A stretch of DNA of 64,000 nt, taken from Candidatus Omnitrophota bacterium (GTDB taxonomy: Bacteria > Omnitrophota > Gorgyraeia > JAFGHF01). Position numbers and translations under genes: made by a program. Under the pieces are notes generated by a model. It saw only the letters and a list, made by a program, of their open reading frames with translations. It had not been told where the DNA came from and searched no databases. Of this stretch, positions 42,819 to 62,167 are shown one piece after another; position 1 is the stretch's first letter, and every line of letters starts with the position of its first letter. Location of the stretch: positions 692,211 through 756,210 of the forward strand of contig CP070837.1 of assembly GCA_020341815.1 (NCBI GenBank). The letters are read 5' to 3'.

Positions 42819-44244
42819 GCTTCGGTCTTAAAAATCGCTCAAAAGGCGACTCTTCCTTCTTGGGCTTCTCTTCCGCCTTTGGTTTTTCAGGGCCCGGCTC
42901 CTCTTGCGATGCTTCAGGTTCCCGCTTTTCCTCCGGCTCTTTTTGCTTTGGTTCTTCAGAGGCCGCTTCTACCTGCGTCTCTTCCTGCGGCGCTTCGGGT
43001 TTCTGTTCTTCTTGTTGCAACTCCTGAGGTTCTTCTTCAGGAACTTCTTCGGGCTTTTGTTCTTCCGAAGACTCCTCGACAGAACTTAAGCCTTCCTGTA
43101 TTTCTTCTTGCGATGCCTCAGGCCTTTGCTCTTCTTCCGGTTTTTCCTCCGGCTCTTCAGGCGTCTGTTCTTGTTGTGGTTCTTCAGCGGGAGACTCTGC
43201 CTGTGCTTCCTCCTGTATTACTTCAGGCTCTTCAGGCACCTGTTCCTCTTGAGGTGCCTCAGGCTGCTCTTCGGCTTTCGGTCCTTCTTCGGGCTTTTCT
43301 TCTTCCTTCGGCTCTTCAGCCTGCGCTTCTTCTTGTTGTGGCGTCTCGGGCTCATCAGGCGCCTGTTGCTCCTGGGGTTCGACTTTGGGCTCTTCCTTTA
43401 CTTCCTCGGGCTCCTGTTCTGCTTGAGGCTCCTGGGGCTTTTCCCCTTTAATTTCTTCGGCTTTAGGCCCTTCTTCGGGCTTTTCTTCTTCCTTTGGTTC
43501 TTCAGGTTTCTGCTCCTCCCGGGCCTGCTCAGGAATTGATTCTGCCTTTGCTTCCTTTTCTTTTAGCCTGGCCTCTTTTTCCTGCTCGAGCTCTTTTTTA
43601 GCTCCCTCGAGTTCTCCTTTGGCGCTTTCAAGCTCTCCTTTAGTGCCTTCAAATTCTTTTTTAGCTCCCTCAAGCTCTCCCTTGGCGTCTTCAAGCTCTT
43701 TTTTAGCTCCCTCGAGTTCTCCTTTGGCGCTTTCAAGCTTTTCTTTAAGCTGATTAAGCTCTTTCTCCAAAGCCTCTTTACCTTCTTTAAGTGTCTGGCT
43801 CTCCTGGGAAACCTTGCTTAACTCATCCTCTTTGCCCTGCAGGTCTTTCTCTAACTTCTTACACTTAATCAGCTGCTCATTAGCCTGTTTTTTCTGCTGT
43901 TCCAACTGAATGGGCAAGTCTTTCTTGGCAATAAGCTCTTTTTGCATCTGCTCGGACTTGGTCTTAAGTTCCTGATGAACTCTATCCTTCTCCTGAAGCT
44001 CTTTCTTTAAATTATCCATCTCTTCCTTCAGGCTAGCCGCTTCTGCCTGAAGTTTCTCATCCGTAACAGTAACCTGCCTAAGCTCCCCTTCCTTCTGCCG
44101 AACCTCGTCTTTCAGGCTATCTACCTGCGCCGTATATTTACCAAAGTCTTTTTTCTGCTGTCCCAGCTGCTGAAAAAGAAATAAGATAATTATTACAACC
44201 AAGCTCGCCATCAGTATTGCCAATATTAAAGGTAAAGGCAGCAT
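42793..44244 (-). CDS. Membrane-anchored coiled-coil protein with tandem heptad repeats and acidic Glu/Pro/Gln-rich C-terminal region
   Basis: 483 aa. TM helix, coiled coil, repeated GELEGAKKELEDAK units, and duplicated EEPKEEEKPEEGPKAEE blocks. Confidence 0.5.
   Translation of the reverse strand: MLPLPLILAILMASLVVIIILFLFQQLGQQKKDFGKYTAQVDSLKDEVRQKEGELRQVTVTDEKLQAEAASLKEEMDNLKKELQEKDRVHQELKTKSEQMQKELIAKKDLPIQLEQQKKQANEQLIKCKKLEKDLQGKEDELSKVSQESQTLKEGKEALEKELNQLKEKLESAKGELEGAKKELEDAKGELEGAKKEFEGTKGELESAKGELEGAKKELEQEKEARLKEKEAKAESIPEQAREEQKPEEPKEEEKPEEGPKAEEIKGEKPQEPQAEQEPEEVKEEPKVEPQEQQAPDEPETPQQEEAQAEEPKEEEKPEEGPKAEEQPEAPQEEQVPEEPEVIQEEAQAESPAEEPQQEQTPEEPEEKPEEEQRPEASQEEIQEGLSSVEESSEEQKPEEVPEEEPQELQQEEQKPEAPQEETQVEAASEEPKQKEPEEKREPEASQEEPGPEKPKAEEKPKKEESPFERFLRPKLNEESPEG
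43590..43745 (-). repeat. In-frame tandem DNA repeats (21/42-nt units, 105-nt higher-order period) within the coiled-coil gene
   Basis: gctccctcgagttctcctttggcgctttcaagct recurs at 43601 and 43706, with variants between. Confidence 0.5.
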
Positions 44245-50404: not shown

Positions 50405-51697
50405 CTATTTTTTCTCCCACCTGAGCAATTCTATCACCTTGGCCAGGGTTGAGCCCCTGTCGATTTCCTCTCTCAATCTATTTTCCTGCTCCAGGACACC
50501 CATTGCCCGGTTGGTAACTTCGACTACTTTCCCTGCAGGGATACAAACCACCCCGTCATCATCGCCGACTATCCAGTCGCCGCCAGAAACTCTCACGCCA
50601 TTAATTACAATGGGTGAGCCTATCTCGCCAAAACCCTTAGGCTCTCCCGCAGAAGGCATAATAAGTGTGGAAAATGCCGGAAATTTCAATTTACGTATTT
50701 CCGATGAGTCGCGCAGAGCGCCATTTATCACTACCCCGGCAATCTTTTTCTGGATGGCCCCGTGTGTAGCTAATTCTCCCCATACCGCCGGGCCTACACC
50801 TGCGGCATCTATCACAATCACGTCTCCACAAGAGGCCTGATCAACCGCCTCCACGCTCTTTGCCCAGTCGCCGGGATAGGTGCGCACGGTCAAGGCCGGA
50901 CCCGCCATCTTCACCGCCTGCCAAACAGGACGAATACCTTTTAAATCTCCTGCGCGATGCATGGCATCGGAAAGATTAGCGGTAGAGACCTCTTTCAATA
51001 TCTTATATACCTCGTCCAGAGAAACCCTTTTGAAATATTCGCTCTTTACGGCTTTGCCTGTGGCAAGCGTCTTTTTTATCCGCCTTGCCGCCTCCAGAGG
51101 ATCCCTGGCCTTGGTTATGGCGCCACCCACAATCACGATGTTTGCGCCTGTTTTTACTGCCTGGGGTGCGGTCTCGGAGTTTATCCCTCCGGCCACAGCA
51201 ACAGGCACTCCTACTGCGCCTCTTACCCTGGCCAATTTAGCGAAAGGTTCTTTACCCTGCATCTGCTCATCGATAGCGCAGTGCACGCCGATATAATCGA
51301 CACCGAGCTTCTCTATTTCTTTTGCCCGTCTTTCCAAATCCCCATCTTTAATCTCTATCAAATCGGCCTCTATCCTGGCGCCGTAATTCTTTCCTGCCTC
51401 TACGCATTCGCGGATAGCGCTATCTGAAGCCGCTGCCAACACACAGACAATATCCGCTCCTGCCTTGGCCGCTGCCTCGGTCTCTATTCTTCCGGCGTCC
51501 ATTATCTTCATATCCGCTACGATAGTGGCCCTGGGAAACTTCCTGCGCAGCTGCCTGAGGGCGTCTAGGCCTTCGCTTTTTATCAAAGGGGTTCCGGCCT
51601 CAAGCCAATCCACGCCGCCTGCCACTGCTTCCTCAGCGACTTTCAGCGCCCTGTTCAAGTTTAAGAAATCCAACGCTACCTGTAATACCGGTTTCAT
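50405..51697 (-). CDS. Fusion of 3-hexulose-6-phosphate synthase (HPS/KGPDC family) with an RraA-like domain
   Basis: 430 aa. N-terminus starts MKPVLQVALDFLNLNRALKVAEE..VDWLEAGTPLI (HPS TIM barrel). The C-terminus matches RraA (..ANLSDAMHRAG..GDVIVIDAAG..GELATHGAIQKKIAGVVINGALRD..). Confidence 0.65.
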   Translation of the reverse strand: MKPVLQVALDFLNLNRALKVAEEAVAGGVDWLEAGTPLIKSEGLDALRQLRRKFPRATIVADMKIMDAGRIETEAAAKAGADIVCVLAAASDSAIRECVEAGKNYGARIEADLIEIKDGDLERRAKEIEKLGVDYIGVHCAIDEQMQGKEPFAKLARVRGAVGVPVAVAGGINSETAPQAVKTGANIVIVGGAITKARDPLEAARRIKKTLATGKAVKSEYFKRVSLDEVYKILKEVSTANLSDAMHRAGDLKGIRPVWQAVKMAGPALTVRTYPGDWAKSVEAVDQASCGDVIVIDAAGVGPAVWGELATHGAIQKKIAGVVINGALRDSSEIRKLKFPAFSTLIMPSAGEPKGFGEIGSPIVINGVRVSGGDWIVGDDDGVVCIPAGKVVEVTNRAMGVLEQENRLREEIDRGSTLAKVIELLRWEKK

Positions 51698-52129: not shown

Positions 52130-52918
52130 TTATTTTTTCCTATACGCATCGAGGAACGATGCGCAGTAAATATGCTTATTTAAAATAAGCTCGGCGCAAA
52201 TCGCCGCATCCATCAATTCTTTATCCAGGGGGTCCATAATTGCCCCTTTTAACCCTAAGGCCAAAGCCATCACTAAAAAGGTCCGGTTAATCAGGCTTCT
52301 GTTTTCTGTGCCCTGGGAAACATTGCTTAAGCCCACCACCGTCTTTGGCGGCGGGTCGGATAAAAGACTGAACTCTCTTATTGCCTCCAGCACCTCTAAG
52401 CTTTGAGGCTGGGCAACATTGACCGGCAGGATTATCGGGTCAAGATAGATATCCTCATGCCCCAAGCCCGCTTCCATAGACGCAGAAATTATCACCGCGG
52501 CAAACTCGCTCCTCTGATGCCTGTCGCGGGGAATACCTTTTTTATCCATAGTCAAGCCAATCAAGCCGGCCCCATATTGCTTGGCCATAGGCAGCAAAAC
52601 ATCCAGTTTTTCCTTATCGGCGGTGGTTGAGTTTATCATGGCCTTATTTTTTATTAGCTTCAGGCCTTCTTCAATTACATTAGGCTTTGTGCTATCCAGG
52701 CACAAAGGCGTATCGGTCACTTCCTGAATGGTCTCAACCAACCACTTCATTGCCCCGACCGCATCGGCTGCCGCCGGACCTACATTTACATCCAGCATCC
52801 CCGCGCCCGCTTCCGCCTGCTCTTTGGCCAACTTCTGAATAACAGACTTATCCTTATTGGCTATTGCCTTTCCTACATTCTTAAACATCCCGTTGATTAA
52901 TTCGCCTATTACCAGCAT
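52130..52918 (-). CDS. acsE: Methyltetrahydrofolate:corrinoid iron-sulfur protein methyltransferase (pterin-binding DHPS-like barrel)
   Basis: 262 aa, the same length as Moorella MeTr. It starts MLVIGELINGMFK with pterin-binding barrel motifs, inside an acs cluster. Confidence 0.8.
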   Translation of the reverse strand: MLVIGELINGMFKNVGKAIANKDKSVIQKLAKEQAEAGAGMLDVNVGPAAADAVGAMKWLVETIQEVTDTPLCLDSTKPNVIEEGLKLIKNKAMINSTTADKEKLDVLLPMAKQYGAGLIGLTMDKKGIPRDRHQRSEFAAVIISASMEAGLGHEDIYLDPIILPVNVAQPQSLEVLEAIREFSLLSDPPPKTVVGLSNVSQGTENRSLINRTFLVMALALGLKGAIMDPLDKELMDAAICAELILNKHIYCASFLDAYRKK

Positions 52919-52922
52919 CCTT

Positions 52923-53879
52923 TTACCCTTTCTTCATCAATCTTTCGATGGTTCCTCTGACGATTTCTATTGCTTTGGGGTGTCTCATCACTAAGATACC
53001 TGCTCCGGCCAGCAATACCGAAACCGCCGTGGTTGCCTCCCATACCGGGCCGCGCTCCTTTTCCGTGCCCCACTCAGGGTGTTCTGCCTGAGGACCCTTG
53101 GCTTCTTTTGCCCGCCAGGCCTCATTCCCCACAAAGCAGATAAAAGGCATGGATAACATCTTATCTCCCATAAGAGCCGCCAGGCGCGCCCGCTCCATTA
53201 TTGAATAGGCATATTCCATGCCATAGCCAAGAGCGCCGATAGTAGGGTTCATTGCTATTTTATTTATATCAAAACCCATATCCGAAATCAGGATATTCAC
53301 CTGCTTGGCAATATTGATATCGATAGGGGATTCACCGATTATATTGTGCCCGTCGGCAAGACAGGCAGCGGTAAGGGTCTTGTAATTTTTTTCAGTAGCA
53401 TCGCCAAATAAACAATTTTCACCCTTGGCCGCCTCACAGCATTTAGGCAAAACCTCGTTGTCTTTATCATCATTGCCGCAACCCAAAACAATCAAAGGCA
53501 CGCCTACCGCCTCAAGAACCGATTTTACAACTTCTGCGGCCTTATCGGTTGATGCATTACCGAAATCGGGATGGGTACCTTGAAGCTTCAGGCAAAGTAA
53601 TTCGGCCTTATATTCGTTAACACATTTTTTTGCCCATTCGGCGGAATTTTTAAAGACATCCTTAAACGGCTCTTTCAAAACTTCAGGCCAGTCAACGGGC
53701 TCGGCATCAAATATCTCCATGGCTATCACCGGCTTATTGGGGATATCTCCTTCATTGAATAAATACGGTAAAGTGGATTCACCCCCCACAGTAACCTTGG
53801 AAGTGCGCGTCCCGGTTCCGCCGATAGTTAAGGTATTAATTGTATTGGACCACTTTTCCTTTAATAACTCCACACTCAT
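52923..53879 (-). CDS. acsD: Corrinoid iron-sulfur protein small subunit (CFeSP delta, AcsD/CdhD)
   Basis: 318 aa. TIM-barrel corrinoid protein (..LIVLGCGNDDKD..). Size and position match AcsD. Confidence 0.8.
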   Translation of the reverse strand: MSVELLKEKWSNTINTLTIGGTGTRTSKVTVGGESTLPYLFNEGDIPNKPVIAMEIFDAEPVDWPEVLKEPFKDVFKNSAEWAKKCVNEYKAELLCLKLQGTHPDFGNASTDKAAEVVKSVLEAVGVPLIVLGCGNDDKDNEVLPKCCEAAKGENCLFGDATEKNYKTLTAACLADGHNIIGESPIDINIAKQVNILISDMGFDINKIAMNPTIGALGYGMEYAYSIMERARLAALMGDKMLSMPFICFVGNEAWRAKEAKGPQAEHPEWGTEKERGPVWEATTAVSVLLAGAGILVMRHPKAIEIVRGTIERLMKKG

Positions 53880-53882
53880 CGA

Positions 53883-54641
53883 TTACCTCCTAAAAAGACC
53901 TTCGCATATTTTATTTACTGCTTCCTGTGCCTTTGAAGTTTCATCAAGCTTTCTTACATTGCCTCCGGCTAAGGCTAATTCGGATATCTCTTCATCTTCG
54001 GGTATTACGCCAGTAAGGGAAATCCCCGTGCGCCCAATCTCCTCTTTAAGTTTATTCGTCTCTCCTTGAGCCCTGTTCACTATCAGTTTTGTGTCTTTGA
54101 CGCTGATTTCTAATTCCCGGGCCAAATCCAGAATCCTTTTCGCCGAACGCAGGCCCACAACGGTATAGTCGCTGACAATGAATAAAAGGTCTATCTTCCT
54201 GGTGGTGCGCCGGGAAAGATGCTCCATTCCCGCCTCATTATCGATTACTATATAAGCATAACTTTTAGTTAATCTTTCAATCAGCGTTCGCAATAAATTA
54301 TTCACAAAGCAATAACACCCCGCACCCTCCGGACGGCCCATTACCAAAAGGTCGAATCCATCGGCCTCGCTAAGGGCATCCTGAATCTGATATTCCAGGT
54401 ATCTGTCGCGGGTCATGCCTTGTGGAATCTGCGAAGGGTTTTTGGCTATATCATCGGCAATGGCAACAATGCTCTTTTCCGACTTAACGCCTAAGGCCTC
54501 ATCCAAATTGGCATTGGGGTCGGCGTCCACAGCTAAAATAGAAGCGCCCTTATGCCTGTTCATAAGCCAGCGGATAACTAACGCTGCCAAGGTAGTTTTT
54601 CCGGTGCCGCCTTTTCCGCAAATTGCTATCGTATAGCTCAT
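53883..54641 (-). CDS. cooC: CO dehydrogenase/ACS nickel-insertion accessory ATPase (CooC/AcsF, MinD/ParA family)
   Basis: 252 aa. Deviant Walker A ICGKGGTGKTT and ..AVDADPNANL... Confidence 0.85.
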   Translation of the reverse strand: MSYTIAICGKGGTGKTTLAALVIRWLMNRHKGASILAVDADPNANLDEALGVKSEKSIVAIADDIAKNPSQIPQGMTRDRYLEYQIQDALSEADGFDLLVMGRPEGAGCYCFVNNLLRTLIERLTKSYAYIVIDNEAGMEHLSRRTTRKIDLLFIVSDYTVVGLRSAKRILDLARELEISVKDTKLIVNRAQGETNKLKEEIGRTGISLTGVIPEDEEISELALAGGNVRKLDETSKAQEAVNKICEGLFRR

Positions 54642-56554
54642 CTTGTCTTCGTCTGTAAGGTAGGAAAACGACTCAGGTCCGTATGAGGGAAAAACAAGGC
54701 TGAGACATATTCATCCATGTAACTGGGCTCTACACTCAATTCAATATAGGTCATCTTCTTGGCTATTTCCTCTGCCTCGGTCTTGGCCTCATAGGAAAGC
54801 AGGATTTCCCGGGCCCCCACCAGGGAACTGTTGCCGATAAAAGTAAACCTCTCCCGCTGCAAATCGGGAAGCAGGCCTATTGTAATTGCCTTATCAATAT
54901 CCAGATAGGTGCCGAATCCTCCGGCTATATAAAACTGCTCGATATCCTTAAAATCCAATTTTAATTTTTTCAATAAAACCGCACAGGCCGCATAGATTGC
55001 CCCTTTTGAGCGTTTGAGATTATCGATATCGGCCTCGGTAATCACGATATTGCGCGTAACGGCGGCGTCTTTTTTAGGCACCAGCACAAACTCTTTGCCT
55101 TTGGCAAACTTTCCGTTGCGGTCAATAATCCCCCGGCGGAATAATTCGGCCAGACAATCGATATATCCGGAGCCGCATATCCCTCGCGGCTTGGCATTGC
55201 CTATTGTGCTAACCTTGACTTTATTGCTTTTGTCTATTTCGACCCTCTGGATTGCACCATTTGTTGCGCGCATGCCGCATTTTACGCCACTGCCCTCAAA
55301 GGCCGGTCCGGCAGAGGCCGCGCAGGAGACCATCCATTCGCGATTACCCAAGACTATCTCTCCGTTTGTGCCCACATCAATGAGCATAGTTAACTTATCC
55401 GCCCGCTCAAGGCCGCAGGCCAAGACTCCGGCAGTAATATCTCCGCCCACATATGTGCTTACCCCGGGCACGCAGGCCAATAAGCCCCGCGGATTCACCT
55501 TTATTCCGGTCTCCGCAGCCCTGATTACCGGAACGAAATTGGCTGTGGATACATAGGGCTCTCTGCGGATAAACTTAGGGTCCACCCGCAATAAAAGATG
55601 CAGCATGGTGGTGTTTCCGGCGCACATTATCCCGTTAATATCGTTTAAATTAATCTTCTCTTCTTTAACCAGCTCCTCGATTATGGCATTAACATTATCG
55701 ATAACGGCGTGATGCAGCTTCTCCAGCCCATCGCGCTCTGAGGCATAGACAATCCGCGTAATCACATCACTGCCAAAGCTTGCCTGTTTATTATGCGTAG
55801 CCTTGGTGCCTAAAATTTCCTTTGTGTTAAGGTTTACCAGTTGCCCTGAGACAGTAGTGGTGCCGATATCTAAGGCAATACCAAAGTTTTTCTCGGAGGT
55901 ATCACCCGGTTCAACGGCAACAATCTCCACAGTGCCGTTTCGCTTGCCTAAGAGCACCGTTACCTTCCATTCGCTTTCTCTAAATAACCTTCCCAGGCGC
56001 TTAATATTGGTCAGACCCGTCTGAAGTATGGGGATGTTACTTGTCTTTCTGACGCCCCGATATAATCTTTCCAGGTCGCTTGTTGTGTCACCTAAGTCAG
56101 GAGGAGGAAGCTCAAGATAAAGCTTGGTAGCCAGGGGGCTGTGCTTAAATAAGTCCTCCTCGATTATCCTTTTGCCTTTTTCTACGTCTACCGCCTGGCT
56201 ATACATCCCTTTAAGGCGCAGGAGCTTGGCGTCCTGCTCGGAAATCTTATCCAAATCCAGCCTTGATTCCGGCGGGACCTTTACCTCTACGTCACTATGC
56301 ACCGTGGTCTGACAGGCAAGGACATAGCCTTTTCGTCTTTCCTTAAGAGAGATTCTTCCCGAGGGCTCGGTCTTTACCTGGCCCTTTTTAATAATTACCT
56401 TACACCTTCCGCAGACTCCGTCTCCGCCGCAGCTGGAATTGATATGCACCCCGGCCTCAACCGCGCAAGACAAAAGGTCCCTGCCCTTATGCGCCTCTAT
56501 CCTGGTGGCCTGAGGATGAAAAAATGTGACTTTATAGGTATCTTTGTCTTTCAT
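54638..56554 (-). CDS. Reductive activator of corrinoid iron-sulfur protein (RACo; 2Fe-2S ferredoxin + ASKHA ATPase)
   Basis: 638 aa. N-terminal plant-type 2Fe-2S (CGGDGVCGRCKV), then a large ASKHA/DUF4445 ATPase domain. It lies between acsC and cooC. Confidence 0.7.
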   Translation of the reverse strand: MKDKDTYKVTFFHPQATRIEAHKGRDLLSCAVEAGVHINSSCGGDGVCGRCKVIIKKGQVKTEPSGRISLKERRKGYVLACQTTVHSDVEVKVPPESRLDLDKISEQDAKLLRLKGMYSQAVDVEKGKRIIEEDLFKHSPLATKLYLELPPPDLGDTTSDLERLYRGVRKTSNIPILQTGLTNIKRLGRLFRESEWKVTVLLGKRNGTVEIVAVEPGDTSEKNFGIALDIGTTTVSGQLVNLNTKEILGTKATHNKQASFGSDVITRIVYASERDGLEKLHHAVIDNVNAIIEELVKEEKINLNDINGIMCAGNTTMLHLLLRVDPKFIRREPYVSTANFVPVIRAAETGIKVNPRGLLACVPGVSTYVGGDITAGVLACGLERADKLTMLIDVGTNGEIVLGNREWMVSCAASAGPAFEGSGVKCGMRATNGAIQRVEIDKSNKVKVSTIGNAKPRGICGSGYIDCLAELFRRGIIDRNGKFAKGKEFVLVPKKDAAVTRNIVITEADIDNLKRSKGAIYAACAVLLKKLKLDFKDIEQFYIAGGFGTYLDIDKAITIGLLPDLQRERFTFIGNSSLVGAREILLSYEAKTEAEEIAKKMTYIELSVEPSYMDEYVSALFFPHTDLSRFPTLQTKTR

Positions 56555-57897
56555 TTGTTTAAGGATTTAAGGAAACTGGGAAGGCCGGAGGCCTCTTTGG
56601 GGCCAACACGCACCTTCCACCCCGACTCTTCTTCCAGTTTTCCGCTTAACACCGCTACATAACCGGGGATAATTATCTCTTTATGCGAAACCTTATCTTT
56701 TATTCCGCATTCATTCAAACTTTTGGTGATGGTCTCGGCGGTAAACTTCTCCGCCGCCCAGGCAGTCAAAACGCTTAATCCTTCAGCATAAGATGAAATT
56801 ATATAACAAGGAACGCGGCTTCCCTCAACCTCTGCCTCTACGGTATAATAGGTCAAAGAAAAATTAGTGGTAACCAATACCGGGGACTTATCTGTGACCT
56901 GGCCGATTTCATAAATCTTGGGCTCAACCTGAAGCGGCTTCTGCGGGTCGGTATAGATATTCTGGCGCAGGGTAAGCAAAGGCAAGACCTCCCAGGGCTC
57001 TACTCCTTTTATAACTACAATCCCCGCATACTTGGCGATATAAGAGGCGGCCTCTGTTATCTCCTGATAAGTCTCACCCGCTGAACTCAGGGCGATTGTG
57101 GGATAACCAAAGGGCCGATAAGTCTTCTTTAAGGCCAGGCGCCTGATTTGCGTTAAGTCACTTATCTTACCTGAGATATCCTTATTGCCCGAATCAAGAA
57201 TCAAATCTTCTACTCCTGCAGAGACCGCCTTCTGCGCCAATTCAGAAAGCTCATCCAGACTCTCTGCCTTGATTGCCAAAGGAAGAGAGTTTTCCTTGGC
57301 AATGGCAACCATAGCATCAAGGTTATCTTTAGTGGCAGCATAGAGTAAAGGCTTTCTATCTTTACAAAGAGAGGCTGCGGCCTTAATTATCTCTGCGTCT
57401 TCGCTCATTAGAATTAAATTTAGCGACTCGGTTACAGAGCGTAGTCTAATTTTTTTTACCAGCTCTGTAAAAGTCTCTTTTTTTCCACTGCTACATCTCA
57501 GCGCAATTAAATTTACGCCGATTTGCTGTCCCACGCGCTCAAAATGCAGCTTATTTATCTTATTAATCCTTTCATCGATTCTGGAAGCATCCTCTGTATC
57601 TTCAACAAGAACCGCTATACCCGCAGGGTGATAAAAGGTCTGTTCATGGCGAAACATTACGGTTTCGTTTCCTATCTCAAGCTTTGCCTCACCCGTTCCG
57701 ATAGTCACCAGTTTTATCGGCGGACGTGAGGCGCTTTCCAGGGCCTGCTTTGCCTCCTCGCTAACATAAGGGCATTTGCTTAACTCCACTTTTTTCGCCG
57801 CAATCTGCATAGCAAAGGCAAGACACGTGGGAAAACCGCATTCCTTACAATTAGTTTTAGGTAAAAGTTTATAAATATCAAGTCCCGATAACGCCAT
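56551..57897 (-). CDS. acsC: Corrinoid iron-sulfur protein large subunit (CFeSP gamma, AcsC/CdhE)
   Basis: 448 aa. N-terminal 4Fe-4S motif CKECGFPTCLAFAMQ, then a TIM barrel and a B12-binding domain. Confidence 0.85.
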   Translation of the reverse strand: MALSGLDIYKLLPKTNCKECGFPTCLAFAMQIAAKKVELSKCPYVSEEAKQALESASRPPIKLVTIGTGEAKLEIGNETVMFRHEQTFYHPAGIAVLVEDTEDASRIDERINKINKLHFERVGQQIGVNLIALRCSSGKKETFTELVKKIRLRSVTESLNLILMSEDAEIIKAAASLCKDRKPLLYAATKDNLDAMVAIAKENSLPLAIKAESLDELSELAQKAVSAGVEDLILDSGNKDISGKISDLTQIRRLALKKTYRPFGYPTIALSSAGETYQEITEAASYIAKYAGIVVIKGVEPWEVLPLLTLRQNIYTDPQKPLQVEPKIYEIGQVTDKSPVLVTTNFSLTYYTVEAEVEGSRVPCYIISSYAEGLSVLTAWAAEKFTAETITKSLNECGIKDKVSHKEIIIPGYVAVLSGKLEEESGWKVRVGPKEASGLPSFLKSLNK

Positions 57898-57906
57898 TTC
57901 TCCTCC

Positions 57907-60900
57907 TTACATAAGCGGTGGCATCTTAAGCGCCGGATGTCCTGTTTTCTCCAGGTGCTTCAATAAATCTTCGGAAGTTGTGGCCACAGTCTCATCGCCA
58001 ATCTTATCAAGTAAATCGGGCGCGCCTTCTTCCTCGCATCTTTTCTTTAACTTATCTGCCAGGGCCTCTTTCAGTTCCTTGGGCATCCAGACTATTCTTT
58101 TTAAGCCTCCATCGGCAGAGATGAACTTTTTGCTCACCAAATACAATCTTCCCACACCCATAAAGCCCGGGGTCTGCGCCCCTCCGCCTACCGAACCGGC
58201 CAGCGTAGAGAAAGTCATCCCGCAGGGCGTCATCCCGCTATACTCGCGGTTGACTACCATAAATCCGTTGGCCTCGGGTAAAATTGCGATAATACACTCG
58301 AAACACCCACAATTTTTAATTAAGAGGCCGTTGGCGAAATAGCAATGTTCATCTGAAGTAGTCAGGTTATAAACATATTTAAATTGATTTTTGTTCTGAA
58401 TCTTTTCAACCTTAGTTACTATATCTAAAAAATAATCGGTCTCCAGTAAGGATTGAAGAAAATCTCTCTTTTGCTGCGGAAGCACCTCTAATACCTTCTC
58501 TACATTTGCCGCTACAGGTCTTGACCGTGCTGTCTTGTAATAAAAGCATGTTGTGGGGCTTAAAACTTTAGAGCTTTCGGGAATCGAACTCAATATTCTT
58601 CCAACAGATAAAGGCAAAACCTGCTCTTGACTTTTATTAAGCCTGTTTTCGGCTGAGAGCTTTTTGATATCGCATAAGACCTTTTTCTTCTCTGGATGCC
58701 TAACTGGAACTTTTTCTGCAAATCTACTTAAACTAATTCCGTGCAAAACGACTTTGTAAATTGAACCTGCTTTATGTATATTAGCAGTAATTCCCAATCT
58801 TTTTAATAGTAATTGCAAATGGAATACAGCTGTCTTATCTTCAATACAAAGATAGGCCTCGCCTGTATCCCACTTATCTGCATATTTCCTTAATCTTACA
58901 CTACCATCTCCATCAAAAACCCCGGCTAAGTAAGCAGAAATAAAGTTTTGAGGAAGATTGATTAATTTAGATAGGTTCCATTTACCCTTAGCGCCAACTT
59001 TAATTCCATAGTAACTCAGCAAAGTTCCAAATAACGGATTGTTGATATAGCATTGATAACACTGCTTAACAGAATTGATTAGTCTTCCTCTTATCTTTCC
59101 CTTGCCCTTTGCTCTAACTCTAACACCTATGGCATGGCCAGGGAAAATATTTTTATAAGTGTCTTTATATGCGGAAATCAACTCTTCATTGGTGTTAATA
59201 AAATCTATCTTATATTGGTATTTTCCCACTTGACAAATAGACCCGTCAGATGTAATAAGTCCTGCTAAGTAAAAGAATTCCGGACTTAGAGCTTTAGGAA
59301 TATTGATTACGGATGCAGCTCGGCCGACTTTTTTAATGGACCTTTTTATCTCTTGCCAATCTAAATTTAAATCTTGAACTATAAGTTTCAACGCTTTTAA
59401 AGTAAAGTTAATTAAGTTTGGATTATATTGGCCCCATCCTAAATTTTTCCAAGCCGCAGAAAATGAACCATATTTTGCCTTCAACTTATCTTTCATTAAT
59501 TTGTTCAAACCCTCATCTCTGACACTAAAGTCGTCTGGAACAAGATCAATTATATCAGGAACCGCACTAGATAATTCCAACTTACTAAATGAAAAAGCTC
59601 TGTCGCCTGCTTTAATTTTGCCGGCTTCAATCCAACTTAGCCCTTCGGGCTTATCTATAGCGATTTTGTGATCCTCGGTCAAAATAATCTCTGCGCCTGA
59701 TTTGGTGGTCACTTTTACTAAATCTTTTGGGGCCGGAAACTTCTGCATCGCCACTATTTTCTCTGGAATAGTCTTGCCGTTCTTCAAAGTTAAAACCGAA
59801 GACTTGGCATATTCCTCTCCCCCCTGATGTCTATTTATAAACTCTCCCATTCTGGTTATTTTCCCATCAATAATAACTTCTGTTTCTGCTGTGCAACAGC
59901 TTGTCTCCGGAAAAGTCATTATAGAGTATCCGTGGAAGCGCTCCAGAGTTTTATTGGACTTTTGATAGATAAACTCATTTACGCCTTTCCATTCCCCTCT
60001 GGCCGCATCAAGGCACTCCCCCTTTTTCACCGGCTGATTAGGGCCGGTGGGATTTAATTCGTAAGAGGCCTTGGCATCCAGATAGCTGTATGCCCCGCAC
60101 AATCCTAATCTTTCCGGCTTGACCATACATAAGTGATTGGGCGCAAAGCTCTGACACAATGTGCAACTATAAAATGTATCCACGCTCTCATCGGTCATTC
60201 CGGCTGTGCGGGCATCGCGGGCCTCATAGGCCTTTTGAGCCTCACCGATGTGTTTTTCCACGTCTTCCTGTTTGGTATAAATCGTTATCTGGGCCTTATC
60301 TACGATAGCGCCAAAGGTATCGTGCAGGCGGGCATGCAGGATTGTTCCGAAATGTTTAATTTTAAAGCCTTTGTTCTTGGCGTCCTTGGAAATCCTCATC
60401 CAGCACATATCGCGCTGGCCCATATGAAAGACACCCATTGCCTCATTTAAGAATGAATGAATCTGCCGCTCTAAAATAGGTTCGAAGTCTTTCTGCATCT
60501 TGCGTCCGGCAACCTCAACCAAAATCCCCAAAGGAAGCGCTTCACCTTCTTTAACATCATCTATCTCCGGGCCGACCATTTCAATCTTTCCGTCCTGCAC
60601 TTCATCTAACTTTTTCATCCGCACATATTCAAAGGCGGTTGTGTATTTCCCGCCGAACTGCACATACATCTGCTCTTTTCTTACCCGCTCACCTTCAAAG
60701 GCCGCAGAATACGAAACGGGAATGGGGATCTCGGAAATCTTTACCTTCACCCCGCGCACCTCGATACAAACCGGAACTATCTTTTTATAATCGCGCTCTT
60801 TGACTAAATGCTCATAGGTGCAAATGCCCGAGGGCCTGATTTCGGGAATATCCGTATCGGCAATCACCGGAAAGCCCATATTGATAGCCCCGGCACCGGT

Positions 60901-61671
60901 AGCGTATTTCACATCGTCAAGTTCACCTAAGGCCAGGCCAAAAGCAAATACCCTCTCCTTGCAATACTGCAGGCATTTGGCGGCCTCGCCCTTTTTGTGT
61001 CCGCCGAAGGTAAGCGCCCCGCGAATTGCCCAGTGCAAAGGATAAATTGCGCTGATAGTATCTCTTCCGTAAGGCACGATATAGGTATCCCAGCCCATCT
61101 CAACCTTTTCTTCCTTTAGCTGATCGATAATACTCTTTCCATTACTTGATGAACCAACAAAGGTCAGGATATTGCGCTTTTGAAACTCCCTGACAATATC
61201 AACAGCGGTCTTGTTATCCGGGGCTGCCCCTAAAATTGCCGCAAACCCGGGCATCCTTCCGTCAACCAGTTGAATGCCCAAACTCCTTAAAATAGTATCC
61301 GAGAAAAATCCGTTACAATCGGCCTGGGGCTCCTGTCCATAGAGATAGCGAAGCGCCACGATTATTTCTTCGGCAAGCAAGGTAGCCATTCCTGAATCCA
61401 GGGCATCCCCTAAATAAGGAAGCCACAGCTCTTCACTCGGCTCTTCATGCAATAGCGACTTTATATGCTCAAGGACAGGCGCTATATCGGCTAAGGTCTT
61501 TACTTCCGCTCCTAATAAAGCATAAGCCATTGGAAGATAAAAAGCAGTTTCGGGGAAAGCAACCTTAGCGTCTTTTCCTTTTTCACTAATTGCCTTGTTC
61601 AAAAAGTCTTCTGCTTCCTTGGCAACCTTTTTTGCTCCGCGTATTGCGCTTGCTGCAACTATTTTAGACAT
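57907..61671 (-). CDS. acsB: Acetyl-CoA synthase (CODH/ACS beta subunit, AcsB) interrupted in-frame by a 529-aa intein
   Basis: 1254-aa ORF. The N-terminus MSKIVAASAIRGAKKVAKEAEDFL..FPETAFYLPMAYALLG is typical AcsB. 4Fe-4S cysteines C503/C506/C515/C525 have Moorella spacing. Removing residues 592-1120 rejoins ..FPETS to CGCFEC.. and gives a 725-aa AcsB. Confidence 0.9.
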   Translation of the reverse strand: MSKIVAASAIRGAKKVAKEAEDFLNKAISEKGKDAKVAFPETAFYLPMAYALLGAEVKTLADIAPVLEHIKSLLHEEPSEELWLPYLGDALDSGMATLLAEEIIVALRYLYGQEPQADCNGFFSDTILRSLGIQLVDGRMPGFAAILGAAPDNKTAVDIVREFQKRNILTFVGSSSNGKSIIDQLKEEKVEMGWDTYIVPYGRDTISAIYPLHWAIRGALTFGGHKKGEAAKCLQYCKERVFAFGLALGELDDVKYATGAGAINMGFPVIADTDIPEIRPSGICTYEHLVKERDYKKIVPVCIEVRGVKVKISEIPIPVSYSAAFEGERVRKEQMYVQFGGKYTTAFEYVRMKKLDEVQDGKIEMVGPEIDDVKEGEALPLGILVEVAGRKMQKDFEPILERQIHSFLNEAMGVFHMGQRDMCWMRISKDAKNKGFKIKHFGTILHARLHDTFGAIVDKAQITIYTKQEDVEKHIGEAQKAYEARDARTAGMTDESVDTFYSCTLCQSFAPNHLCMVKPERLGLCGAYSYLDAKASYELNPTGPNQPVKKGECLDAARGEWKGVNEFIYQKSNKTLERFHGYSIMTFPETSCCTAETEVIIDGKITRMGEFINRHQGGEEYAKSSVLTLKNGKTIPEKIVAMQKFPAPKDLVKVTTKSGAEIILTEDHKIAIDKPEGLSWIEAGKIKAGDRAFSFSKLELSSAVPDIIDLVPDDFSVRDEGLNKLMKDKLKAKYGSFSAAWKNLGWGQYNPNLINFTLKALKLIVQDLNLDWQEIKRSIKKVGRAASVINIPKALSPEFFYLAGLITSDGSICQVGKYQYKIDFINTNEELISAYKDTYKNIFPGHAIGVRVRAKGKGKIRGRLINSVKQCYQCYINNPLFGTLLSYYGIKVGAKGKWNLSKLINLPQNFISAYLAGVFDGDGSVRLRKYADKWDTGEAYLCIEDKTAVFHLQLLLKRLGITANIHKAGSIYKVVLHGISLSRFAEKVPVRHPEKKKVLCDIKKLSAENRLNKSQEQVLPLSVGRILSSIPESSKVLSPTTCFYYKTARSRPVAANVEKVLEVLPQQKRDFLQSLLETDYFLDIVTKVEKIQNKNQFKYVYNLTTSDEHCYFANGLLIKNCGCFECIIAILPEANGFMVVNREYSGMTPCGMTFSTLAGSVGGGAQTPGFMGVGRLYLVSKKFISADGGLKRIVWMPKELKEALADKLKKRCEEEGAPDLLDKIGDETVATTSEDLLKHLEKTGHPALKMPPLM
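58312..59898 (-). mobile_element. Intein with LAGLIDADG homing-endonuclease domain inserted at the A-cluster Cys-Gly-Cys motif of AcsB
   Basis: Block A CCTAETEVIIDG starts at C592. Two LAGLIDADG motifs are present (FYLAGLITSDGSI, AYLAGVFDGDGSV). Block F/G is KYVYNLTTSDEHCYFANGLLIKN, followed by the +1 Cys of CGCFEC. Intein DNA is visibly more AT-rich than the flanking acsB exteins. Confidence 0.8.
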
Positions 61672-61737
61672 TTGATACTCCTCGTTTAATATTCACCTTG
61701 AGTGCTTACGAATTTCGAATTTCCCATATCTTGCTTT

Positions 61738-62148
61738 CTAATTTAATCTTTTACCATAAATAAGGGCTATAAGCACGCCGCCCACAGGCGTAGCGATTAT
61801 CCCTGAAATAAGACAAGGAAGAGGAAATGGGCCAGCGCTCATAGTATGCTGAAAAAATAATCCTACTAACTGAGGTAAAAACAGAAGAACTCCAAAAATA
61901 AATCCCTTTTTTGCAGGAGTGTTTCCGGGGATGCCTCTATGGATTACAAGATAAAGAAAAGAAAGAACCAATCCCATAACTATGCTTAAAAGGATTAGCT
62001 TAGTCATCATTGTAGAATCAAATGATCTATAGAGATGCTCATAACCCACATACCAATCTTTGAATATTCCTCCGTTTACTATCCCGTGAATTACATTAGA
62101 AAAAATCCCCCATATTAACCCCGCAATAAGCCATCTTAATGCTTTCAT
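61738..62148 (-). CDS. Hypothetical 4-TM membrane protein
   Basis: 136 aa, hydrophobic. It sits between acsB and the oxidoreductase. Confidence 0.4.
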   Translation of the reverse strand: MKALRWLIAGLIWGIFSNVIHGIVNGGIFKDWYVGYEHLYRSFDSTMMTKLILLSIVMGLVLSFLYLVIHRGIPGNTPAKKGFIFGVLLFLPQLVGLFFQHTMSAGPFPLPCLISGIIATPVGGVLIALIYGKRLN

Positions 62149-62167
62149 CTTTTTTACCTCCTCTTAT

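What the first reader, a model, noticed from the sequence alone, without database searches (positions are those of the whole stretch)
58312..59898. Intein inserted in the catalytic Cys-Gly-Cys (A-cluster) motif of acetyl-CoA synthase AcsB
The acsB ORF is 1254 aa, against about 730 aa for known AcsB. Residues 592-1120 carry intein hallmarks. They start CCTAETEVIIDG (Cys1, acidic residue at position 5, Thr6, Val8). Block F/G at the other end, ..VYNLTTSDEHCYFANGLLIKN, ends in Asn and is followed by Cys (+1). Splicing would give ..FPETS-CGCFECIIAIL.., a 725-aa protein. The upstream cysteines C503, C506, C515 and C525 have the 3/9/10 spacing of the Moorella 4Fe-4S ligands. The +1 Cys sits 67 residues after the last of them, where Cys595 of the C595-G596-C597 Ni-Ni motif is expected. 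So the insertion lies in the most conserved active-site motif, as is typical of inteins. The host is an unusual one, a Wood-Ljungdahl metabolic enzyme; inteins are mostly known from replication, repair and nucleotide-metabolism proteins. I am not aware of a described AcsB intein. AcsB activity here would depend on protein splicing.
Basis: partly seen in the sequence, partly recalled or inferred. Interest (0 to 1): 0.9.

Follow-up and report, generated by a model that had tools for sequence, protein, structure and literature searches.

The report
Intein splitting acetyl-CoA synthase's nickel site
The gene for acetyl-CoA synthase, the key enzyme of the Wood-Ljungdahl carbon-fixation pathway, is interrupted here exactly at its nickel-binding Cys-Gly-Cys motif by a 529-residue self-splicing mobile protein element (an intein with a homing endonuclease), so the enzyme can only form after protein splicing; the element is a standard kind, but I found no paper describing one in this host enzyme.

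Summary
Confirmed. The minus-strand ORF 57907..61671 encodes a 1254-aa AcsB. Residues 592-1120 (58312..59898) are a canonical class-1 intein carrying a two-motif LAGLIDADG homing endonuclease. It sits between Ser591 and Cys1121, which correspond to Ser594|Cys595 of Moorella ACS, the first Cys of the A-cluster Cys-Gly-Cys motif.

Main evidence:
- The exteins align collinearly with solved ACS structures.
- Intein and LAGLIDADG profiles match, and an AF2 model (pLDDT 90) matches PI-PkoII, VMA inteins and PI-PfuI.
- Cys1, block-B Thr/His, the terminal Asn and the +1 Cys are invariant across relatives.
- A metagenomic allele 92-93% identical in DNA has exactly the predicted empty site and a 725-aa product.
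- Extein dN/dS against that allele is 0.03.
- Intein GC3 is 0.33, against 0.51-0.57 in the exteins.

The element is not unique. At least 28 AcsB genes from uncultured bacteria carry homologous inteins at the same site, as full-length, endonuclease-truncated or mini forms. The source labels are Omnitrophota, Planctomycetia, Actinomycetota, Aerophobetes and Chloroflexota. Some relatives carry a second intein before the Cys509 equivalent.

No paper describing an ACS intein was found. NCBI records name the intein-bearing ones "LAGLIDADG family homing endonuclease" or "hypothetical protein".

Splicing, endonuclease activity and any regulatory role are inferred, not shown. It is a new member of a known kind, of moderate interest.

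The parts
57907..61671 (-). acsB precursor ORF, 1254 aa (139.6 kDa), stop codon included
   Evidence: One search lists the ORF. NCBIfam NF040764 CODH_ACS_al_bet scores 1031.9 bits (cutoff 800) in two stretches. Best PDB ACS match is E 1.5e-211.
59899..61671 (-). N-extein, aa 1-591 (65.8 kDa), ending ..YSIMTFPETS. It contains the [4Fe-4S] ligand cysteines.
   Evidence: Aligns to 7zkj_B 26-593 and 1oao_C 27-594. It is 93.3% nt identical to L011 2022-3796.
60097..60165 (-). Cys503, Cys506, Cys515 and Cys525, equivalent to Moorella Cys506/509/518/528 (the [4Fe-4S] ligands; Cys509 bridges to Nip). This site is uninterrupted here, but in some relatives a second intein sits before Cys506.
   Evidence: Searches give the sequence YSCTLCQSFAPNHLCMVKPERLGLCG. 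The role of Cys509 is taken from PMC8910529. Second-site inteins appear in L006, P0001, P0095, P0109, P0167 and P0168.
58312..59898 (-). Intein, aa 592-1120 (529 aa, 59.4 kDa, pI 9.5)
   Evidence: Supported. It is absent from the 92-93% identical allele L011. GC is 0.365 and GC3 is 0.33, against GC3 of 0.51 and 0.57 in the exteins.
59584..59898 (-). N-terminal splicing (Hint) half, aa 592-696. It holds Cys1 (aa 592, 59896-59898) and block-B Thr74/His77 (aa 665 and 668, 59668-59679).
   Evidence: TIGR01445 matches 592-670. C1, T74 and H77 are invariant in alignment A1 and in all family members. This half is retained in the mini-intein relatives P0013, P0016 and L008-L010.
58447..59583 (-). Linker/DNA-recognition region plus LAGLIDADG homing-endonuclease domain, aa 697-1075. 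This region is deleted in the mini-intein relatives.
   Evidence: Pfam LAGLIDADG_3 matches 910-988. The AF2/Foldseek model matches intein-endonucleases and free LAGLIDADG enzymes. The mini-inteins lack these alignment columns.
59242..59268 (-). LAGLIDADG motif 1, LAGLITSDG (aa 802-810), with the acidic residue present
58903..58929 (-). LAGLIDADG motif 2, LAGVFDGDG (aa 915-923), with the acidic residue present
58312..58446 (-). C-terminal splicing half, aa 1076-1120 (blocks F and G): ..DYFLDIVTKVEKIQNKNQFKYVYNLTTSDEHCYFANGLLIKN. It ends in Asn1120. Block-F position 4 is Asn and the penultimate residue is Lys.
   Evidence: TIGR01443 matches 1099-1121. N529 is invariant and H518 nearly so. The atypical Asn/Lys pair is documented.
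57910..58311 (-). C-extein, aa 1121-1254 (14.4 kDa). It starts with Cys1121-Gly-Cys1123 (58303-58311), equivalent to Moorella Cys595-Gly596-Cys597, the Nip/Nid ligands. Cys1121 is also the +1 splicing nucleophile.
   Evidence: Aligns to 3s2x_A (ACS fragment starting at Ser594) residues 2-136 and to 7zkj_B 594-728. The function of the motif is taken from PMC8910529.
52130..57897 (-). Rest of the acs operon downstream of acsB: acsC (56551-57897), RACo corrinoid activase (54638-56554), CooC/AcsF-type Ni-insertion ATPase (53883-54641), acsD (52923-53879) and acsE methyltransferase (52130-52918).
   Evidence: Pfam gives CdhD+FeS, RACo domains, CbiA/NifH-like, CdhD and Pterin_bind. All genes are intact, which fits a functional pathway.

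Best explanation
Residues 592-1120 of this AcsB are a bona fide class-1 intein with an embedded two-motif LAGLIDADG homing endonuclease. It is inserted in frame between Ser591 and Cys1121, equivalent to Moorella Ser594|Cys595, directly before the A-cluster Cys-Gly-Cys motif.

Proposed splicing mechanism:
1. The 139.6-kDa precursor is translated, and the Hint domain folds from its two halves (aa 592-696 and 1076-1120).
2. Cys592 attacks the Ser591 carbonyl (N-S acyl shift, assisted by block-B Thr665/His668).
3. The thioester is passed to the thiol of Cys1121.
4. Asn1120 cyclises and releases the 59.4-kDa intein.
5. An S-N shift leaves a normal Ser-Cys peptide bond.

The product is an 80.2-kDa, 725-aa AcsB reading ..FPETSCGCFEC... 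Only after this can Cys1121/Cys1123 and Cys506 bind Nip and Nid, presumably with help from the CooC/AcsF-type ATPase encoded three genes downstream. The precursor is expected to be inactive, because the intein splits the C-terminal A-cluster domain and uses a nickel ligand as its nucleophile.

The released intein is a homing endonuclease. It is expected to cut intein-free acsB alleles at the conserved ..GAGACAAGC|TGCGGGTG.. site and copy itself in by repair. This would explain its patchy presence at one site across several phyla and its decay to mini-inteins.

Shown by computation: the exact in-frame boundaries, the fold, the catalytic residues, the empty-site allele, the family distribution and purifying selection on the exteins. 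Inferred: actual splicing, endonuclease activity, the order of splicing and metal insertion, and the dependence of the cell's ACS activity on splicing.
For: - Collinear extein alignment to solved ACS structures, with the break exactly before the CGC motif.
- Intein and LAGLIDADG profile hits above curated cutoffs.
- AF2 model with pLDDT 90.2 and pTM 0.90. Foldseek top hits are intein-endonucleases: 2cw7 (E 4e-22), 7qss, 1dq3 and PI-SceI.
- The family profile also hits the Mja KlbA, PI-PkoII, VMA and RadA inteins by sequence.
- Cys1, T74/H77 and N529 are invariant, and the +1 Cys is present in every member.
- The intein-free allele L011 is 92-93% nt identical on both sides and has a 725-aa product 98% identical to the predicted spliced protein. 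The 1587-bp difference falls exactly at AGC|TGY.
- Extein dN/dS is 0.032 at dS 0.34.
- Intein GC3 is 0.33 against 0.51 and 0.57 in the exteins, and the intein pI is 9.5.
- All 10 loci in GTDB species representatives, plus further protein hits, have the homologous intein at the identical site. Intein lengths range from 149 to 571 aa, which matches the stages of a homing cycle.
- The acs operon around the gene is intact.
Against: - No experiment or proteomic data are available, so splicing itself is not shown.
- Two residues that help catalysis in most inteins are replaced: the penultimate His is Lys, and the block-F Asp is Asn. Among the matched stretches of related inteins that cover the C-terminal end, 136 of 146 have Asp/His. 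Inteins without the penultimate His are known to splice (own knowledge: Chen, Benner & Perler 2000; DnaE split inteins). The combination seen here is untested.
- The endonuclease could already be inactive.
- A second, uninterrupted acsB copy elsewhere in the genome cannot be excluded from 64 kb.
- The window's exact protein is not in the look-up collection, so its own wider genome context could not be examined.
Confidence: 0.88

Rival explanations
1. The intein is a dead element that no longer splices. On this reading, this acsB is a recently inactivated gene, and the organism either lacks ACS activity or relies on another copy.
For: - The penultimate His and the block-F Asp are both replaced by Lys and Asn.
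- Only 64 kb of the genome is visible, so a second copy cannot be excluded.
- The intein looks recently acquired, since the closest allele lacks it. There may have been little time for extein decay to show.
Against: - The Asn/Lys (or Ala) pair is invariant across at least 28 AcsB inteins in distantly related hosts whose exteins are all intact and conserved. It is therefore a family trait, not a lesion.
- All nucleophiles and block-B residues are intact.
- The 1254-codon frame is unbroken.
- Extein dN/dS is 0.032.
- The whole acs operon is intact.
- Mini-inteins at the same site show that splicing is retained long after the endonuclease is lost.
Confidence: 0.07
2. The insert is a lineage-specific accessory domain of AcsB, or a bacterial intein-like (BIL) / Hint domain that cleaves or stays in place. 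On this reading it is not a splicing mobile element.
For: Hint-fold domains that do not splice do exist (BIL and Hedgehog-type). Hedgehog Hint domains appear among the weak structural and sequence matches.
Against: - The insert lies in the most conserved active-site motif and has a C-terminal Asn plus a +1 Cys at every occurrence.
- Of the 120 closest AcsB clusters, 110 lack any intein.
- Its position would separate the metal ligands of one cluster.
- It carries a homing endonuclease, and its GC3 differs from the host gene by about 0.2.
- A 92-93% identical empty-site allele exists.
Confidence: 0.02
3. The structure is an assembly or binning artefact, a chimera joining an acsB contig with an unrelated intein-bearing sequence.
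For: The window probably derives from a metagenome assembly, and its GC content drops sharply inside the insert.
Against: - Both junctions are in frame and codon-exact.
- The same architecture occurs independently in 10 GTDB species-representative MAGs and in more than 15 further protein clusters from NCBI, JGI, ENA and Logan.
- The nearest inteins are only 67-70% identical, so the window is not a copy of those assemblies.
Confidence: 0.01

Closest known systems
Archaeal class-1 inteins with LAGLIDADG homing endonucleases: PI-PkoII (Tko Pol-2, PDB 2cw7), Tli/Pho VMA inteins (7qss, 7qst), PI-PfuI (1dq3), PI-SceI (1vde)
   Same: They share the two-part Hint splicing domain interrupted by a double-motif LAGLIDADG endonuclease and a DNA-recognition region. 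They share Cys1, block-B TxxH and the terminal Asn, and they insert at a conserved active-site residue. They are the best structural matches and are also found by sequence profile.
   Different: Sequence identity is only 11-17%. Their hosts are DNA polymerase, RNR or ATPase, not a nickel/iron-sulfur metabolic enzyme. This family has Asn at block-F position 4 and Lys/Ala as the penultimate residue, where the canonical pair is Asp/His.
Homologous AcsB inteins in uncultured bacteria (e.g. JBHIBS010000016 'bacterium K_1_bin.22', JAFGCM010000059 Omnitrophota, JASEEZ010000006 Actinomycetota, NJBP01000014 Aerophobetes, JBMFNL010000033 Chloroflexia)
   Same: They share the insertion site (..[ST][SA]|C...[KA]N|CGCFEC), the domain order and the atypical catalytic-block residues. 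Identity to the window intein is 40-70%.
   Different: They are allelic variants: some have lost part or all of the endonuclease (149-466 aa), and some genes carry an additional intein at the Cys509 site. No paper describing any of them was found, and the NCBI records for the intein-bearing ones call them 'LAGLIDADG family homing endonuclease' or 'hypothetical protein'.
Intein-free bacterial ACS alpha subunit / AcsB (Moorella thermoacetica 1oao/1mjg, Carboxydothermus hydrogenoformans 1ru3/7zkj)
   Same: The exteins align end to end (E about 1e-207 to 1e-211). All A-cluster ligands are conserved: Cys506/509/518/528/595/597 in Moorella numbering.
   Different: Those enzymes are made directly as proteins of about 730 aa. 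Here the C-terminal domain is split by 529 residues immediately before Cys595.
Inteins in metal-cluster or redox proteins with condition-dependent splicing (Mycobacterium tuberculosis SufB intein; Pyrococcus MoaA and PolII inteins with Cys1/Cys+1 disulfide traps). This comparison rests on my own knowledge and was not tested here.
   Same: They have Cys1 and Cys+1 nucleophiles in a host protein that handles metal clusters. Oxidation or metal binding could in principle block splicing.
   Different: No evidence for conditional splicing was obtained here. In this case the +1 Cys is itself a ligand of the catalytic Ni-Ni site.
NCBIfam 'exception' models for intein-containing proteins (NF045703 Tes radical-SAM lipid synthase, NF038162 RtcB-related)
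   Same: They are precedents for inteins in non-replication enzymes that are recognised by annotation pipelines. Both give weak hits through the intein part.
   Different: Among the NCBIfam hits, none was an intein-containing AcsB model, and the window protein scores far below those two models' cutoffs.

Membership tests
Class-1 (canonical) intein | In-frame insertion in a conserved host protein whose flanks rejoin to the uninterrupted homologue | tested here: met
   The exteins are collinear with PDB ACS structures. The 725-aa spliced product is 98% identical to the natural intein-free P0017. The DNA empty site lies exactly at the predicted junction.
Class-1 (canonical) intein | Hint (Hedgehog/intein) fold formed by the N- and C-terminal halves | tested here: met
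   Pfam Intein_splicing, TIGR01445 and TIGR01443 all match. The AF2 model has pLDDT 90.2, and Foldseek matches inteins and Hedgehog Hint domains.
Class-1 (canonical) intein | Nucleophile at intein position 1 (Cys/Ser) and at extein +1 (Cys/Ser/Thr), with a C-terminal Asn | tested here: met
   Cys592, Asn1120 and Cys1121 are present, and all three positions are invariant in the family.
Class-1 (canonical) intein | Block-B Thr-x-x-His | tested here: met
   The sequence LTEDH contains T74 and H77, both invariant. It aligns to block B of Mja KlbA.
Class-1 (canonical) intein | Penultimate His and block-F Asp. These are common but not universal, and they are not strictly defining. | tested here: not met
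   The residues are Lys (Ala in some relatives) and Asn. Of 146 related intein stretches that cover the C-terminal end, 136 have Asp/His.
Class-1 (canonical) intein | Demonstrated protein splicing | not testable with these tools
   This needs expression of a precursor, or proteomics.
LAGLIDADG homing endonuclease (two-motif, monomeric) | Two LAGLIDADG motifs with terminal acidic residues in an alpha-beta-beta-alpha-beta-beta-alpha pseudo-dimer fold | tested here: met
   The motifs are LAGLITSDG (aa 802-810) and LAGVFDGDG (aa 915-923). Pfam LAGLIDADG_3 matches. Foldseek matches I-Tsp061I, I-DmoI/I-CreI chimeras, I-OnuI and others. The SDG/GDG residues are conserved in all seven full-length sequences of alignment A1.
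LAGLIDADG homing endonuclease (two-motif, monomeric) | Site-specific cleavage of the intein-free allele | not testable with these tools
   The candidate target is known from L011: CCGGAGACAAGC|TGCGGGTGTTTTGAGTGT.
Bacterial acetyl-CoA synthase AcsB (CODH/ACS alpha subunit) | Full-length match to the equivalog model, and all A-cluster ligand cysteines plus the Cys-Gly-Cys motif | tested here: met
   NF040764 scores 1031.9 bits against a cutoff of 800. The cysteines at 503/506/515/525/1121/1123 align to Moorella 506/509/518/528/595/597.
Class-3 intein | Trp-Cys-Thr triplet with a block-F Cys nucleophile, and a non-nucleophilic first residue | tested here: not met
   The first residue is Cys, and block-F position 4 is Asn, not Cys.
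Bacterial intein-like (BIL) domain | A Hint domain in variable regions of non-conserved proteins, without a conserved +1 nucleophile or an endonuclease | tested here: not met
   The insert lies in an invariant active-site motif, has a conserved +1 Cys and carries an endonuclease.

The most novel reading that the evidence does not exclude
The AcsB inteins may be more than parasites. They may act as a maturation gate for an oxygen-sensitive nickel enzyme. The splicing nucleophiles are themselves A-cluster ligands: Cys595 at this site, and Cys509 at the second site found in relatives. Oxidation of these cysteines (a disulfide involving Cys1, the adjacent Cys2 found in the Omnitrophota-type alleles, or Cys+1/Cys+3), or premature binding of Ni, Zn or Cu, would block splicing. 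Active ACS would then be produced only under reducing conditions and before nickel insertion by the co-encoded CooC/AcsF ATPase. The family-specific replacement of block-F Asp and the penultimate His by Asn and Lys would be part of this tuning.
Probability: 0.15. Interest if true: 0.8.

Novelty: new member of a known kind. Interest (0 to 1): 0.55.

Why it matters
1. It adds acetyl-CoA synthase, the defining enzyme of the Wood-Ljungdahl pathway, to the list of intein hosts. That list is dominated by replication, repair and nucleotide-metabolism proteins: 62-67% fall in COG category L and 8-22% in category F, according to PMC4760082. The insertion points found here and in relatives are the very cysteines that hold the Ni-Ni-[4Fe-4S] A-cluster.

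2. It has a practical consequence for annotation. Several intein-bearing AcsB genes are named 'LAGLIDADG family homing endonuclease' or 'hypothetical protein' in NCBI records. About 8% of the closest Omnitrophota-type AcsB clusters carry an intein. Metabolic reconstructions from MAGs could therefore overlook or mis-score the key carbon-fixation gene.

3. It offers a natural system for asking whether inteins in metalloenzymes respond to redox state or metals, because the +1 nucleophile doubles as a nickel ligand.

4. All stages of the homing cycle occur within one gene family: empty site, full-length endonuclease, truncated endonuclease, mini-intein and double occupancy. This makes a compact data set for studying intein dynamics.

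Tried and rejected
- An exact look-up of the 1254-aa protein in the contig collection found nothing on record, so the source genome could not be retrieved. The host is inferred as Omnitrophota-like only from extein identity of 77-91% to proteins so named and 89% to L006.
- Literature searches paired 'intein' with acetyl-CoA synthase, AcsB, CdhC, Wood-Ljungdahl, carbon monoxide dehydrogenase, acetyl-CoA decarbonylase, Omnitroph*, and hydrogenase plus ferredoxin oxidoreductase. None returned a paper describing an ACS intein. The one promising hit, the Desulfonema ishimotonii genome paper, reports GyrB and DnaE inteins only. One multi-term query was rejected for syntax.
- No supplementary tables are held for the intein survey PMC4760082, so I could not check its full host list.
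- The IMG/VR viral contigs encode no relative of the intein, so there is no evidence for a viral vector.
- A profile of the intein family searched against the six-frame translation of the window found only this one intein.
- Rfam found only three tRNAs and no intron or ribozyme in or near the insert.
- I asked whether the site-a (Cys509) intein is the sister of the site-b intein, which would imply ectopic transposition within the gene. The two are only 26-28% identical. Inteins from hydrogenase, 2-oxoacid oxidoreductase and other hosts score higher against the site-b profile, so this is not supported.
- dN/dS within the intein was not attempted, because the nearest relatives are only 67-70% identical in protein and synonymous sites would be saturated.
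- The 136-aa ORF upstream of acsB has no Pfam hit and no homologue in the related loci.
Full report
**Observation**

The minus-strand ORF 57907..61671 encodes 1254 aa. Residues 592-1120 correspond exactly to window 58312..59898. They begin CCTAETEVIIDG and end ..HCYFANGLLIKN, followed by CGCFEC. Deleting them leaves a 725-aa protein reading ..YSIMTFPETS-CGCFECIIAIL...

Composition changes sharply inside the insert. GC is 0.365, against 0.476 and 0.504 in the flanking coding parts. GC3 is 0.33, against 0.51 and 0.57.

**Host protein**

NCBIfam's equivalog model for the bacterial CODH/ACS alpha/beta subunit (NF040764) scores 1031.9 bits against a cutoff of 800, in two stretches. Pfam finds CODH_A_N, CdhC and a split ACS_CODH_B_C domain.

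Against solved structures, query 11-592 aligns to 7zkj_B 26-594 and to Moorella 1oao_C 27-595. Query 1120-1254 aligns to 7zkj_B 593-728 and to residues 1-136 of 3s2x, the ACS fragment that starts at Ser594. The exteins are therefore collinear with ACS, and the break falls between the equivalents of Ser594 and Cys595.

Cys503/506/515/525 correspond to Moorella Cys506/509/518/528. Cys1121-Gly-Cys1123 corresponds to Cys595-Gly596-Cys597. In ACS the [4Fe-4S] cubane is bridged to the Nip-Nid pair through Cys509, and Nid sits in the Cys-Gly-Cys motif (PMC8910529).

**The insert is an intein with a homing endonuclease**

- Pfam Intein_splicing matches 602-1120 and LAGLIDADG_3 matches 910-988.
- TIGR01445 (intein N-terminal) matches 592-670, and TIGR01443 (intein C-terminal) matches 1099-1121. 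All of these hits are above curated cutoffs.
- An AlphaFold2 model built on an alignment of ten family members has mean pLDDT 90.2 and pTM 0.90.
- Its best Foldseek matches in the PDB are PI-PkoII (2cw7, E 4e-22), the Tli and Pho VMA inteins, PI-PfuI and PI-SceI. Free LAGLIDADG enzymes and mini-inteins or Hedgehog Hint domains follow for the respective parts.
- In the family alignment Cys1, Thr74/His77 (block B) and the terminal Asn529 are invariant, and the block-F His518 is nearly so.
- Two LAGLIDADG motifs with their acidic residues are present: LAGLITSDG at aa 802-810 and LAGVFDGDG at aa 915-923.
- The intein is basic (pI 9.5) while the spliced host is acidic (pI 6.0).

**Atypical catalytic-block residues**

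Block-F position 4 is Asn where Asp is usual. The penultimate residue is Lys (Ala in some relatives) where His is usual. Of 146 related intein stretches that cover the C-terminal end, 136 have Asp/His. The Asn/Lys pair occurs only in the AcsB inteins and in one hydrogenase small-subunit intein. I treat this as a family trait rather than damage, because it is constant in all members.

**Empty-site allele**

Searching with the predicted spliced protein returned P0017, a 725-aa AcsB that is 98% identical. Its contig (L011, Logan SRR24270831) aligns to the window in three blocks at 92-93% nucleotide identity:
- L011 718-2010 matches window 63459-62167.
- L011 2022-3796 matches window 61671-59897.
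- L011 3795-7437 matches window 58311-54660.

The only difference inside acsB is the 1587-bp intein. L011 reads ..CCGGAGACAAGC|TGCGGGTGTTTTGAGTGT.. where the window reads ..CCGGAGACAAGC|[intein]|TGTGGGTGTTTCGAGTGT... This fixes the boundaries independently of any motif argument.

Between the two alleles the exteins have dS 0.34, dN 0.011 and dN/dS 0.032, which indicates strong purifying selection.

**Family and distribution**

The intein alone retrieves 16 protein clusters. All but two (P0007, P0012) carry the ACS C-terminal domain, and all that include the junction have ..[ST][SA]|C....[KA]N|CGCFEC.

A scan of one genome per GTDB species found ten loci, and all of them are in acsB at the identical site. 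The record titles name Omnitrophota (3), Planctomycetia (3), Actinomycetota, Aerophobetes, Chloroflexia and an unclassified bacterium. That scan used a single peptide pattern, so it gives a lower bound.

Intein lengths fall into three groups:
- Full-length: 523-571 aa.
- Truncated, lacking the region between the splicing domain and the endonuclease core: 447-466 aa.
- Mini-inteins: 149-179 aa.

The closest inteins are 70% (L001) and 67% (L006) identical, while the matching exteins are 80% and 89% identical. P0013, a mini-intein in a near relative, is 79% identical to the window's splicing domain.

Of the 120 AcsB clusters closest to the window's extein (at least 77% identical, most of the named ones called Omnitrophota/Omnitrophica), eight have an intein at this site and two at a second site. 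In nearly all loci the intein GC is 0.07-0.17 below the exteins. The Chloroflexia locus is the exception.

The pattern is an empty site in the closest relative, patchy presence across phyla, deviant composition and endonuclease decay. This is what a homing cycle produces. I cannot tell from these data whether the window lineage gained the intein recently or the L011 lineage lost it precisely.

**Second insertion site in relatives**

In L006 the acsB frame is 1807 aa and holds two inteins. The extra one (553 aa) sits at SCTL|C...VKN|CQSFAPNH, directly before the equivalent of Cys509. P0001 also has both. P0095, P0109, P0167 and P0168 have only this one. The two intein types are 26-28% identical over their full length, and both have the Asn/Lys pair. 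The window's own Cys506 site is uninterrupted.

**Wider relatives**

A profile search of 1.84 billion representative proteins gave 3588 hits (E ≤ 0.001). Everything above 400 bits is the AcsB family.

The next tier (about 200-290 bits in one stretch) consists of inteins in other proteins, most of them energy-metabolism enzymes:
- The group-4 [NiFe]-hydrogenase/complex-I 49-kDa subunit, at its RICGI|C nickel motif.
- The 20-kDa small subunit, at DCGS|C..N|CNGC.
- 2-oxoacid:ferredoxin oxidoreductase alpha and beta subunits.
- A radical-SAM enzyme.
- An HdrA-like flavoprotein.
- Cbf5.
- A/V-ATPase subunit B.
- PolB and MCM.

Metabolic hosts are thus less exceptional in metagenomic data than the published record suggests. 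In the main genomic survey, 62-67% of intein hosts fall in COG category L and 8-22% in category F (PMC4760082).

**Genomic context**

Immediately downstream of acsB lie acsC, the RACo corrinoid activase, a CooC/AcsF-type ATPase, acsD and acsE. Upstream are an FAD/NAD(P) oxidoreductase and a CooF-like ferredoxin. All are intact. No other intein is present in the window, and Rfam finds only three tRNAs.

**Mechanism**

Steps marked (shown) rest on the computations above. Steps marked (inferred) follow from the established class-1 splicing pathway.
- The precursor is a single 139.6-kDa polypeptide (shown).
- The Hint domain assembles from residues 592-696 and 1076-1120 (shown by model).
- Cys592 forms a thioester with Ser591 (inferred).
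- The acyl group moves to Cys1121 (inferred).
- Asn1120 cyclises and frees the 59.4-kDa intein (inferred).
- An S-N shift yields the 80.2-kDa AcsB with the native Ser-Cys-Gly-Cys sequence (inferred; the product sequence matches a natural protein at 98%, shown).
- The intein divides the A-cluster domain and its +1 nucleophile is a nickel ligand, so cluster assembly should follow splicing (inferred).
- The released endonuclease would target intein-free alleles at the conserved active-site codons (inferred).

**Novelty and literature**

None of eight full-text queries pairing 'intein' with names for this enzyme, pathway or host phylum, or with hydrogenase and ferredoxin oxidoreductase, found a description of an ACS intein.

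None of the 15 NCBIfam hits was an intein-containing AcsB model, although such 'exception' models exist for Tes and RtcB-like proteins.

The sequences themselves are public but are named 'LAGLIDADG family homing endonuclease' or 'hypothetical protein' in NCBI records; some JGI records name them as acetyl-CoA synthase. I classify the finding as a new member (a new host and insertion site) of a well-known kind of element.

**Verdict**

Confidence that this is a genuine, splicing-competent intein is 0.88. Interest is moderate (0.55). The mechanism is textbook. What is not textbook is the host enzyme, the use of A-cluster ligands as splice nucleophiles at two sites, the unusual block-F and penultimate residues, and the annotation consequences. 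The redox/metal-gating idea is untested; I rate its probability at about 0.15.

Noticed in passing
window 61672-62166 (ORF 61738-62148, minus strand): A 495-bp low-GC segment lies between the FAD/NAD(P) oxidoreductase gene and acsB. The 92-93% identical allele L011 has only 11 bp there. The segment encodes a 136-aa hydrophobic protein with about four predicted membrane spans. It has no Pfam hit and no homologue in the related loci. It is therefore a second insertion next to the intein-bearing gene.
   Followed up: partly
L006 1741-7161 (JAFGCM010000059, Omnitrophota MAG); also P0001, P0095, P0109, P0167, P0168: Some relatives' AcsB carry a second intein type (536-553 aa, with LAGLIDADG) at SC[TS]L|C...KN|CQSF, directly before the Cys509 equivalent that bridges the [4Fe-4S] cluster to Nip. 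L006 and P0001 carry both inteins; the L006 AcsB frame is 1807 aa. The two intein types are 26-28% identical.
   Followed up: partly
L008, L009, L010, P0013, P0015, P0016, P0070 (mini); L005, L007, P0006, P0074, P0102, P0104, P0115 (truncated): At the same AcsB site there are mini-inteins of 149-179 aa without an endonuclease. There are also 447-466-aa forms that lack the region between the splicing domain and the LAGLIDADG core. Together with the empty-site alleles, all stages of the homing cycle are represented.
   Followed up: yes
P0140, P0145, P0159, P0149, P0163, P0154, P0157, P0164, P0148, P0147, P0190 (representative-protein hits): The nearest non-AcsB relatives of this intein sit in several other proteins, most of them anaerobic energy-metabolism enzymes. 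The hosts are the group-4 [NiFe]-hydrogenase/complex-I 49-kDa subunit at its RICGI|C nickel motif, the 20-kDa small subunit at a CxxC motif, 2-oxoacid:ferredoxin oxidoreductase alpha and beta, a radical-SAM enzyme, an HdrA-like protein, Cbf5 and A/V-ATPase B. I found no paper describing these either.
   Followed up: partly
window 58315-58317 (Lys1119) and 58366-58368 (Asn1102); family-wide: Both AcsB intein types, and one hydrogenase small-subunit intein (P0149), have Asn instead of the block-F Asp and Lys instead of the penultimate His. Of 146 related intein stretches that cover the C-terminal end, 136 have Asp/His. Whether this reflects shared ancestry or adaptation to cysteine-rich metal sites is unexplained.
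   Followed up: partly
window 59893-59895 (Cys593, intein residue 2): The Omnitrophota-type alleles (window, L001, L005, L006, L008-L010, P0013, P0016, P0070, P0072, P0074 and others) start with Cys-Cys. The alleles labelled Actinomycetota, Aerophobetes or Chloroflexota (and some Omnitrophota-labelled ones such as L007 and P0006) start with Cys followed by Val, Phe or Leu. A vicinal second cysteine next to the nucleophile might matter for redox behaviour. This was not tested.
   Followed up: no
public records P0001, P0006, P0009, P0011, P0074, P0086, P0095, P0102, P0109: NCBI names these intein-containing AcsB proteins 'LAGLIDADG family homing endonuclease' or 'hypothetical protein'. Automated metabolic reconstruction could therefore miss the key Wood-Ljungdahl gene in these MAGs.
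   Followed up: no
window 45062-46999 (-) and 42793-44244 (-): Two long ORFs (645 aa and 483 aa) downstream of the acs region have no Pfam family at E ≤ 1e-5 and E ≤ 1e-4 respectively.
   Followed up: no
window 50405-51697 (-): A 430-aa fusion of an OMP-decarboxylase/HUMPS-family domain with an RraA-like aldolase domain lies just downstream of acsE. A CbiA/DRTGG protein and a DsbD-thioredoxin fusion follow it.
   Followed up: no
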